Program-made: the position numbers and the translations under genes
Origin: Trypanosoma brucei
Lineage: Eukaryota
Length of the DNA stretch: 64,000 nt
Reading direction: 5' to 3'
NCBI GenBank assembly: GCA_000002445.1
Contig: CH464491.1
Location: 5,024,001-5,088,000 of the forward strand
The notes under the pieces: model-generated
Told to the model about the DNA's origin: nothing
Seen by the model: the letters and a program-made list of their open reading frames with translations, nothing else
Database searches by the model: none
In this document: positions 41,005 to 41,056 of the stretch, piece by piece
Position numbering within the stretch: position 1 is the first letter of the stretch
How the letters are laid out: every line of letters starts with the position of its first letter

Positions 41005-41056
<52 letters not shown>
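41005..41056. repeat. Pure (ATT)17 = (TAA)n microsatellite at the position where a 70-bp repeat is expected
   Basis: ATTATTATT... for about 51 bp with no adjacent GTATATACACACTCACAACAC core. It lies about 1.55 kb upstream of the intact VSG at 38034-39458, the spacing at which other cassettes have their 70-bp repeat. Confidence 0.85.

What the first reader, a model, noticed from the sequence alone, without database searches (positions are those of the whole stretch)
41005..41056. A 70-bp repeat reduced to a pure (TAA)17 microsatellite upstream of an intact VSG
Other cassettes have a GTATATACACACTCACAACAC-type unit plus a (TAA)n tail at the expected position. The intact VSG at 38034-39458 has only 51 bp of uninterrupted ATT triplets and no core. 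The (TAA)n part of the 70-bp repeat is the component implicated in DNA instability and fragility. The conserved core is thought to provide the homology used when a silent VSG is copied into the expression site. A VSG with only the triplet tract may be harder to activate by 70-bp-mediated conversion despite being intact. It may also be locally more fragile. Cassettes at 47716-47760 and 54880-54960 also show core-less TAA-rich remnants.
Basis: partly seen in the sequence, partly recalled or inferred. Interest (0 to 1): 0.5.

Follow-up and report, generated by a model that had tools for sequence, protein, structure and literature searches.

The report
Decayed 70-bp repeat with expanded TAA tract
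Upstream of one intact silent coat-protein (VSG) gene of Trypanosoma brucei, the usual "70-bp repeat" recombination signal is still in place. Its conserved core has mutated almost beyond recognition and its TAA tail has grown into a perfect 17-unit microsatellite, an ordinary variant of a well-known element.

Summary
The window is a T. brucei brucei TREU927 subtelomeric VSG array, with about 19 cassettes, all on the minus strand.

**Observation.** The (ATT)17.3 tract at 41005-41056 is real and perfect. It is the longest triplet run and the longest all-A/T run in the window. It lies 1,547 bp upstream of an intact B-type VSG, where other cassettes carry their 70-bp unit.

**What "pure microsatellite, no core" overstates.**
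- The 46 nt at 40959-41004 abut the tract in exact register and are a decayed core (about 65% identity, 30 of 46). The AT-rich half is kept; the AC/GT-rich half is eroded.
- Core plus tract aligns full-length to the unit consensus at 76% identity (E 1e-10).
- The adjacent conserved flank is as well preserved as in any cassette.

**Context.** Core decay is a continuum here: four of about 19 cassettes are degenerate. The literature already reports that about 10% of VSGs lack recognisable repeats and that TAA tracts vary in length.

**Function.** Reduced donor efficiency and fragility are plausible but untested. The gene's 3'UTR 16-mer is also degenerate, so "intact" applies to the ORF only.

Low interest; already known in kind.

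The parts
41005..41056 (-). Perfect (TAA)17.3 tract (ATT on the + strand). It is the triplet component of the cassette's single 70-bp unit.
   Evidence: TRF: period 3, 17.3 copies, 100% matches. Longest perfect triplet run in the window and longest all-A/T run. 0 expected in shuffles. No hairpin: MFE -0.6 kcal/mol, z 0.76.
40959..41004 (-). Decayed relic of the 70-bp core, abutting the tract in exact register. The AT-rich half GCTCTT-TTGTAAAATTTT is largely kept. The AC/GT-rich half GCATACATAGTGCCGAGATAATCC is about 54% identical to the consensus.
   Evidence: MAFFT alignment A1. Anchored PWM -3.5 bits, empirical p = 4.6e-4. Gapped alignment p = 0.002, shuffle p = 0.0005, 30/46 identities. Full-unit blastn 40962-41032, 76.4% over 72 nt, E 1.4e-10. 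Not detected by the core-only nhmmer search.
40895..40958 (-). Conserved cassette flank element on the VSG-proximal side of the core (consensus ACTCACTTACTC.CATT..ACCCTTGTCATTGTTTTAA.TGCTTCTATTTT on the + strand).
   Evidence: Alignments. Cassette L is 0.74 identical to the leave-one-out consensus (range over 17 cassettes 0.54-0.77, cassette P excluded at 0.25).
39459..40894 (-). Non-coding region between the repeat and the VSG start codon. It includes a second conserved block about 200-400 bp from the core.
   Evidence: Conservation profile. Cassette L identity 0.67 in that block (range 0.45-0.72). The repeat-to-ATG distance of 1,547 bp is typical of the window (894-2,801 bp).
38034..39458 (-). 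Intact B-type VSG ORF, 474 aa; TREU927 XP_829784.1 / EAN80672.1 / Q380V9.
   Evidence: Translation. Pfam PF13206 VSG_B, E 8e-71, profile positions 2-351 of 352. 100% identical database entry.
37948..37963 (-). Degenerate 3'UTR 16-mer: AAGAATATTTTAACAG against the canonical TGATATATTTTAACAC.
   Evidence: Not found at <=3 mismatches. Read directly from the 3'UTR printout. The 16-mer is essential for VSG mRNA stability (PMC5698767).
44078..44120 (-). Nearest canonical 70-bp unit upstream. It belongs to the neighbouring VSG pseudogene cassette (about 41323-42862) and is a possible alternative 5' conversion boundary.
   Evidence: nhmmer 35.0 bits, E 7e-10. 3-mismatch motif hit at 44097. Pfam A-type VSG fragment at 42485-42862.
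47699..47757 (-). Comparator: a second cassette with an in-register decayed core and a short ATT tract, upstream of a VSG pseudogene.
   Evidence: PWM -0.2 bits, p = 3e-4. Core identity 0.48 against flank identities 0.72 and 0.77. Tract of 17 bp.
54880..54960 (-). Comparator: a heavily interrupted ATT-rich tract with no detectable core, upstream of a VSG pseudogene.
   Evidence: TRF: period 6, 64% matches. PWM p = 3e-3 out of register. blastn 68%, 26.8 bits, at noise level.
24038..24100 (-).
   Evidence: Sequence. PWM 19.7 bits. blastn 66.7% over 63 nt.

Best explanation
This is the single 70-bp (76-bp-type) repeat unit that marks the 5' boundary of a silent array VSG cassette, caught in an advanced state of decay.

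In the canonical cassettes of the window the core is kept much more similar than its flanks: 0.74-0.95 against about 0.5-0.75 identity to consensus. That is what concerted evolution or selection on the core would produce.

In this cassette the core has drifted to flank-level similarity or slightly below (0.55), mainly in its AC/GT-rich half. The adjacent triplet tract has been expanded and homogenised by replication slippage into a perfect (TAA)17.

- **Shown:** position, register, residual homology, flank preservation, and the purity and length of the tract.
- **Inferred:** slippage as the cause of the purity; escape from homogenisation as the cause of the decay.
- **Inferred consequence:** as a whole-cassette donor the gene offers poor homology to expression-site 70-bp cores. 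Activation would have to use one of four routes: the 52-bp TAA tract itself, the diverged unit, the next canonical unit 3 kb upstream (which would co-copy the intervening pseudogene), or junctions inside the ORF. A junction in the ORF is probably needed at the 3' end anyway, because the 16-mer is degenerate.
For: - The tract lies at the typical repeat position, 1,547 bp from the ATG, and next to the 3' flank of the neighbouring cassette (16-mer-like site at 41254).
- The core relic is in register and statistically supported.
- Flank identity is 0.67 and 0.74, at the top of the window's range, while core identity is 0.55.
- Decay is graded across cassettes. PWM scores are 45-67 bits for full canonical units, 20-28 for partial ones, and -3.5 to -0.2 for cassettes L and N. 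This fits gradual erosion rather than a special event.
- All other tracts are interrupted (ATC, ACT, GTT variants), so purity plus length points to recent slippage.
- Literature: 1-3 repeats lie near about 90% of VSGs, which leaves about 10% without (PMC6237402). [quoted passage not shown]
Against: - The core-only HMM finds nothing here, and the PWM score is weak in absolute terms. About 14 unrelated AT-rich positions in the window reach it, so the case for homology rests on register and flank context.
- The AC/GT-rich half is only about 54% identical, so partial replacement cannot be excluded.
- The core is not significantly more diverged than the flank (Fisher p = 0.07).
- No orthologous or allelic copy could be retrieved to polarise the changes or to show tract-length polymorphism.
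Confidence: 0.75

Rival explanations
1. One reading: the core was lost (deleted or replaced) and only a bare (TAA)17 microsatellite remains. The gene then has essentially no 70-bp homology.
For: No hit to the core motif at <=3 mismatches or to the core HMM at E<=100 anywhere in 39459-41323. The AC/GT-rich half of the putative relic is only about 54% identical.
Against: - There is in-register similarity: anchored PWM p about 5e-4, gapped alignment p = 0.002.
- The AT-rich half GCTCTT..TAAAATTTT is preserved directly next to an intact flank element, leaving no room for a deletion.
- The full unit aligns at 76% over 72 nt.
Confidence: 0.12
2. The expanded pure TAA tract is itself the functional element. 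It would act as a DNA-unwinding or fragile site, or as a TAA-only homology block that pairs with long TAA tracts in expression-site repeats. The cassette would then be activated, or rearranged within the archive, through the tract.
For: - It is the longest all-A/T run in the window.
- It forms no hairpin, which is compatible with an unwound, non-H-bonded state (Ohshima 1996 as cited in PMC3467770 and PMC6237402).
- 52 bp exceeds the roughly 31-bp MEPS of the short-substrate pathway (PMC1904282).
- (TAA)90 exists in an expression site (Campbell 1984, cited in PMC4858185).
Against: - There is no evidence of breakage, polymorphism or use as a junction.
- Silent arrays are not the sites where switch-initiating lesions are thought to arise (PMC6237402).
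- In PMC4858185 the orientation-specific activity was assayed with a dimer of the conserved 70-bp unit. A mutated dimer did not rescue, and the triplet function was explicitly not addressed.
- Cassette B has a 92-bp tract together with canonical cores, so long tracts need no special role.
Confidence: 0.08
3. Assembly or sequencing artefact: the tract length or the junction is misassembled in the reference.
For: Low-complexity repeats are error-prone. A related T. equiperdum contig has a run of N inside its 70-bp unit.
Against: Both flanks are continuous and collinear with the conserved cassette architecture. The tract is only 52 bp, well within a Sanger read.
Confidence: 0.03

Closest known systems
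Canonical T. brucei 70-bp (about 76-bp) repeat upstream of VSG genes (Liu 1983; Campbell 1984; consensus in Hovel-Miner 2016, PMC4858185)
   Same: - Position about 1.5 kb upstream of a VSG.
- Orientation, read on the VSG sense strand: TAA-rich tract, then GT-rich core, then AATATTATAATAAGAGCAG-type block.
- Single copy, as in most array cassettes.
- 76% identity to the unit consensus over 72 nt.
   Different: - The GT-rich core (Region 1) is eroded: not detectable by motif or HMM search, and -3.5 bits against 45-67 bits for canonical units.
- The triplet tract is a perfect 17-unit run instead of a 5-10 unit run interrupted by TGA, TAG or similar variants.
(TAA)n tracts in the 5' flanks of chromosome-internal VSG genes (Aline et al. 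1985 NAR) and (TAA)90 in an expression site (Campbell et al. 1984 NAR). Both are known to me only from their titles and citations in PMC4858185 and PMC6237402.
   Same: Long TAA runs of variable length associated with 70-bp repeats at VSG 5' boundaries.
   Different: None in kind. This is one more instance, of moderate length. The two papers could not be read here.
The roughly 10% of archive VSGs with no recognisable 70-bp repeat nearby (PMC6237402; Marcello & Barry 2007, from my own knowledge)
   Same: A motif or HMM search would place this cassette in that class, as it would three others in this window.
   Different: A diverged unit is in fact present. At the >70% identity, >45 bp figures of PMC4858185 it would probably be counted as having a repeat.
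Generic AT-rich trinucleotide microsatellite expanded by replication slippage
   Same: A perfect, uninterrupted run. It is the longest in the window and predicts no hairpin.
   Different: It is not free-standing. It derives from, and is in register with, a defined recombination-associated repeat unit.

Membership tests
T. brucei 70-bp repeat | Located about 1-2 kb upstream of a VSG, in the sense orientation, at the cassette boundary | tested here: met
   1,547 bp from the ATG. Other cassettes in the window: 894-2,801 bp. The neighbouring cassette's 3' flank starts immediately beyond the tract.
T. brucei 70-bp repeat | TAA/TTA triplet-rich segment | tested here: met
   Perfect (TAA)17.3.
T. brucei 70-bp repeat | Conserved GT-rich core (GGAGAGTGTTGTGAGTGTGTATATAC on the sense strand) | tested here: not met
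   No hit at <=3 mismatches. No nhmmer hit at E<=100. Only a weak in-register relic, about 54% identical in this half.
T. brucei 70-bp repeat | Conserved AT-rich block with a GC anchor (AATATTATAATAAGAGCAG on the sense strand) | tested here: inconclusive
   GCTCTT-TTGTAAAATTTT against GCTCTTATTATAATATTT, about 16/20 identities. This is suggestive but short and AT-rich.
T. brucei 70-bp repeat | Operational criterion of PMC4858185: BLAST hit to the unit consensus longer than 45 bp at more than 70% identity | tested here: met
   blastn with the window-derived 72-nt consensus: 40962-41032, 72 nt, 76.4%, E 1.4e-10. Caveats: permissive +1/-1 scoring, and a window-derived consensus rather than the BES1 consensus.
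T. brucei 70-bp repeat | Serves as the 5' limit of duplicative VSG gene conversion | not testable with these tools
   This needs junction mapping in switchers that express this VSG.
Functional (fully competent) VSG cassette | Intact ORF with N-terminal domain, C-terminal cysteines and a GPI signal | tested here: met
   474-aa ORF. VSG_B profile positions 2-351 of 352. C-terminus ...GSNSFVVNKAPLWLAFLLLA, which resembles the 17-residue-class GPI signal by my own reading.
Functional (fully competent) VSG cassette | Canonical 3'UTR 16-mer TGATATATTTTAACAC | tested here: not met
   AAGAATATTTTAACAG. The 16-mer is essential for mRNA stability (PMC5698767).

The most novel reading that the evidence does not exclude
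Core erosion and triplet expansion might be mechanistically linked. An expanded, pure TAA tract would raise local mutagenesis through error-prone repair of stalled forks next to the repeat, so that it destroys the neighbouring GT-rich core. This would progressively uncouple archive VSGs from 70-bp-guided conversion. Such genes would then be activated through the next upstream unit, carrying the intervening pseudogene into the expression site, or would contribute only as mosaic donors.

The window neither supports nor excludes this. Cassette L shows the pattern. Cassette B has a long tract with intact cores. Cassettes G and N have decayed cores without long tracts.
Probability: 0.07. Interest if true: 0.4.

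Novelty: already known. Interest (0 to 1): 0.13.

Why it matters
If donor-side 70-bp quality really sets activation probability, cassettes like this one would help explain the ordered, semi-predictable use of the VSG archive. They would also help explain why some intact genes appear late or only as mosaic pieces. That question is better addressed genome-wide than at a single locus.

The practical lesson is methodological. Core-motif searches under-call diverged 70-bp units, while whole-unit BLAST criteria count them largely on the strength of the TAA tract. Published counts of VSGs with and without a repeat therefore depend on the criterion used.

Tried and rejected
1. **Exact-protein contig look-ups** for the VSG, to find other assemblies or strains and compare tract length. 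Nothing was on record.
2. **Closest database relative.** It is only 44% identical (T. equiperdum). Its contig (L001) shares no flank homology with this cassette. It carries a canonical-type unit interrupted by Ns about 1.9 kb upstream, so it is not an orthologue and cannot polarise the changes.
3. **Literature search for the protein accessions**, to link the gene to VSG-seq data. No hits.
4. **Papers not held:** Aline 1985 and Marcello & Barry 2007.
5. **Hairpin or cruciform idea for the tract.** Rejected: MFE -0.6 and -0.5 kcal/mol, no better than shuffles.
6. **'Long tract implies decayed core' within the window.** Not supported: cassette B has a 92-bp tract with three canonical cores, and cassettes G and N have decayed cores with short tracts.
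7. **A shared variant core subfamily in cassettes L and N** (both have CCGnGAT where the consensus has CACAACACT). Noted by eye. It is too short to test with two sequences.
8. **tblastn with the six intact VSGs** to map all pseudogenes. It was too insensitive. The cassette map rests instead on ORFs, Pfam hits, 16-mer sites and repeat units.

Full report
**Origin and layout.**
- The ORF at 38034-39458 (minus strand) translates to a 474-aa protein. It is 100% identical to a putative VSG of Trypanosoma brucei brucei TREU927 (XP_829784.1 / EAN80672.1 / Q380V9), which lies on a 5.26-Mb record. It matches the whole Pfam B-type VSG domain.
- The window is a subtelomeric VSG array with about 19 cassettes, all on the minus strand. 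I delimited them by long or fragmented VSG ORFs, by 17 matches to the 3'UTR 16-mer (expected 1.3), and by 70-bp repeat units.
- Six cassettes have long open ORFs. The rest are pseudogenes or fragments.

**The observation.**
- TRF reports a period-3 array at 41005-41056: 17.3 copies, 100% matches.
- It is the longest perfect triplet run in the window, 52 bp against 32 bp at 7229-7260 and 21 bp at 14027.
- It is also the longest uninterrupted A/T run, 54 bp against 33 bp. Shuffled sequence never produces even a 30-nt version.
- It lies 1,547 bp upstream of the VSG start codon, within the range for repeat units of the other cassettes (894-2,801 bp).
- The core motif GTATATACACACTCACAACAC has 12 matches at <=3 mismatches, none of them between 37713 and 44097.
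- An nhmmer profile built from 14 window units finds 16 significant sites, and nothing in 39459-41323 even at E<=100.

**Is the core really gone?** No.
- On the + strand every cassette reads: flank element, then CTCTTATTATAATATT, then GTATATACACACTCACAACACTCTCC, then the ATT tract.
- Here the 46 nt that abut the tract read ACAGCTCTTTTGTAAAATTTTTGCATACATAGTGCCGAGATAATCC. MAFFT places them column for column under the core.
- A position weight matrix built from the canonical units scores this segment best at the offset that ends exactly at the tract junction: -3.5 bits, against a window background of -53 +/- 13. Only about 14 unrelated positions on both strands reach that score.
- A gapped alignment to the consensus scores 13, against 3.5 +/- 2.2 for random 50-mers (p = 0.002) and 4.1 +/- 1.9 for shuffles of the segment (p = 0.0005), with 30/46 identities.
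- The AT-rich half with its GC anchor is largely kept. The AC/GT-rich half is about 54% identical.
- When the whole unit (core plus tract) is used as a blastn query, the locus aligns full-length: 40962-41032, 76.4% over 72 nt, E 1.4e-10. That is in the same range as the accepted units of cassettes C, K and M. It also exceeds the figures used to count repeats in PMC4858185 (>45 bp, >70% identity).
- In absolute terms the relic is very weak. Full canonical units score 45-67 bits on the same matrix. As a source of core homology it is close to useless.

**Internal control from the flanks.**
- Cassettes share conserved sequence for at least 400 bp on the VSG-proximal side of the core.
- For each cassette I measured identity to a leave-one-out consensus. 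Cassette L scores 0.67 and 0.74 in the two flank blocks, at the top of the window's ranges (0.45-0.72, and 0.54-0.77 with cassette P excluded at 0.25). Its core scores 0.55, whereas the canonical cassettes score 0.74-0.95.
- The cassette at 47699-47757 behaves the same way (0.72, 0.77, 0.48).
- The region has therefore not been deleted or replaced wholesale. The core has drifted to flank-like similarity or slightly below (core against flank within L, Fisher p = 0.07). In the other cassettes the core is held far more constant than its surroundings.
- Decay is graded across the window. The order runs from full canonical units, to partial or weaker ones (1537, 16911, 24038 and 52080, at 20-28 bits), to the relics of cassettes L and N, and finally to an undetectable core at 54880-54960.
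It has half a core and almost no tract.

**The tract.**
- All other tracts in the window are 9-45 bp and interrupted by ATC, ACT or GTT variants. Cassette B has 92 bp, of which 32 bp are perfect.
- A perfect 17-unit run is best explained by recent replication slippage. This is an inference from general microsatellite behaviour, not something shown here.
- Neither strand forms a hairpin (MFE -0.6 and -0.5 kcal/mol, no better than shuffles). That fits the literature's description of TAA.TTA as an easily unpaired sequence rather than a hairpin former (Ohshima 1996, as cited in PMC3467770 and PMC6237402).
- Within the window, tract length and core decay are not coupled.

**Function.**
- Published work shows that 70-bp repeats in the active expression site guide donor choice. 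A synthetic dimer in the correct orientation partly restores archive access, whereas a monomer, a reversed dimer or a mutated dimer does not. The role of the triplets was explicitly left open (PMC4858185).
- Repeats are not strictly required for conversion (McCulloch 1997, cited in PMC6237402).
- T. brucei recombination has a MEPS of about 100 bp for the main pathway and about 31 bp for a short-substrate pathway that tolerates mismatches (PMC1904282).
It is untested, and it is softened by three points:
  1. 52 bp of perfect TAA could pair with TAA-rich stretches of expression-site repeats.
  2. A canonical unit lies 3 kb further upstream, at 44078-44120. Using it would co-copy the intervening pseudogene.
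  3. The gene's 3'UTR 16-mer, which is essential for VSG mRNA stability (PMC5698767), is degenerate here: AAGAATATTTTAACAG. A productive copy would probably need a 3' junction within the gene in any case.
- "Intact" therefore describes the ORF, not the cassette.
- Fragility of a silent-array tract is speculative. The lesions thought to trigger switching are placed in the transcribed expression site (PMC6237402).

**Comparison with what is known.**
- Variable-length TAA runs in 70-bp repeats and in the flanks of chromosome-internal VSGs have been described since 1984-85 (Campbell 1984; Aline 1985; cited in PMC4858185).
- Reviews state that 1-3 repeats lie near about 90% of VSGs (PMC6237402), which implies that about 10% have no recognisable unit.
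- This locus belongs to the degenerate tail of a well-known element in a reference genome. It is not a new kind of feature.

**What could not be done.**
- No allelic or orthologous copy could be retrieved.
- The closest relative, at 44% identity in T. equiperdum, is not orthologous.
- The gene could not be linked to expressed-VSG datasets.

Noticed in passing
window 34242-34285; 59113-59165; 2607-2622: Short telomere-type hexamer runs (CCCTAA/TAACCC on the + strand, so TTAGGG on the VSG sense strand) lie 200-300 bp downstream of VSG 3'UTR 16-mers at 34521, 59296 and 2909. They look like fossil telomere tracts, which suggests those cassettes were once telomeric.
   Followed up: no
window, about 60-420 bp on the VSG-proximal side of every 70-bp unit (e.g. 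40600-40958, 13600-13980): Cassettes share conserved non-coding blocks well beyond the 70-bp unit. One is the flank element ACTCACTTACTC.CATT..CCTTGTCATTGTTTTAA.TGCTTCTATTTT. A second block, 200-400 bp away, has 55-68% majority identity. The 70-bp unit is therefore not the only shared upstream homology among array cassettes.
   Followed up: partly
window 37948-37963, and the 3'UTRs of the other intact ORFs: Only one of the six long VSG ORFs (2983-4422) has a perfect 16-mer. 34716-36086 has one mismatch, 14315-15820 has two, and the others are degenerate or lack it. Most 'intact' array ORFs here lack a fully canonical 3' end.
   Followed up: partly
window 34560-34716: The ORF at 34716-36086 stops early. 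C-terminal-domain and GPI-signal-like coding sequence (...MALLF-type) continues downstream of its stop codon before the 16-mer (tblastn extends to 34574). This 'intact' ORF is probably a truncated pseudogene.
   Followed up: no
window 7010-7314: This is the only multi-unit array in the window: 2.7 tandem 72-bp units followed by a 92-bp ATT-rich tract. It lies 2.6-2.8 kb upstream of the VSG at 2983-4422, with a separate 212-aa ORF at 5314-5952 in between.
   Followed up: no
window 1537-1583 and 16911-16929: Partial second units (PWM 27.6 and 23.7 bits) lie next to the canonical units at 1626 and 16990. Some 'single-unit' cassettes are really about 1.5 units.
   Followed up: no
window 40985-40995 and 47724-47733: Both decayed cores share CCGnGAT where the consensus has CACAACACT. 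This could be chance or a shared variant lineage. It cannot be tested with two sequences.
   Followed up: no
L001 1708-1717: In the T. equiperdum contig CZPT02001417.1, a run of 10 N sits exactly where the GT-rich core of the 70-bp unit should be, upstream of the closest VSG relative. This is an assembly gap inside the repeat.
   Followed up: no
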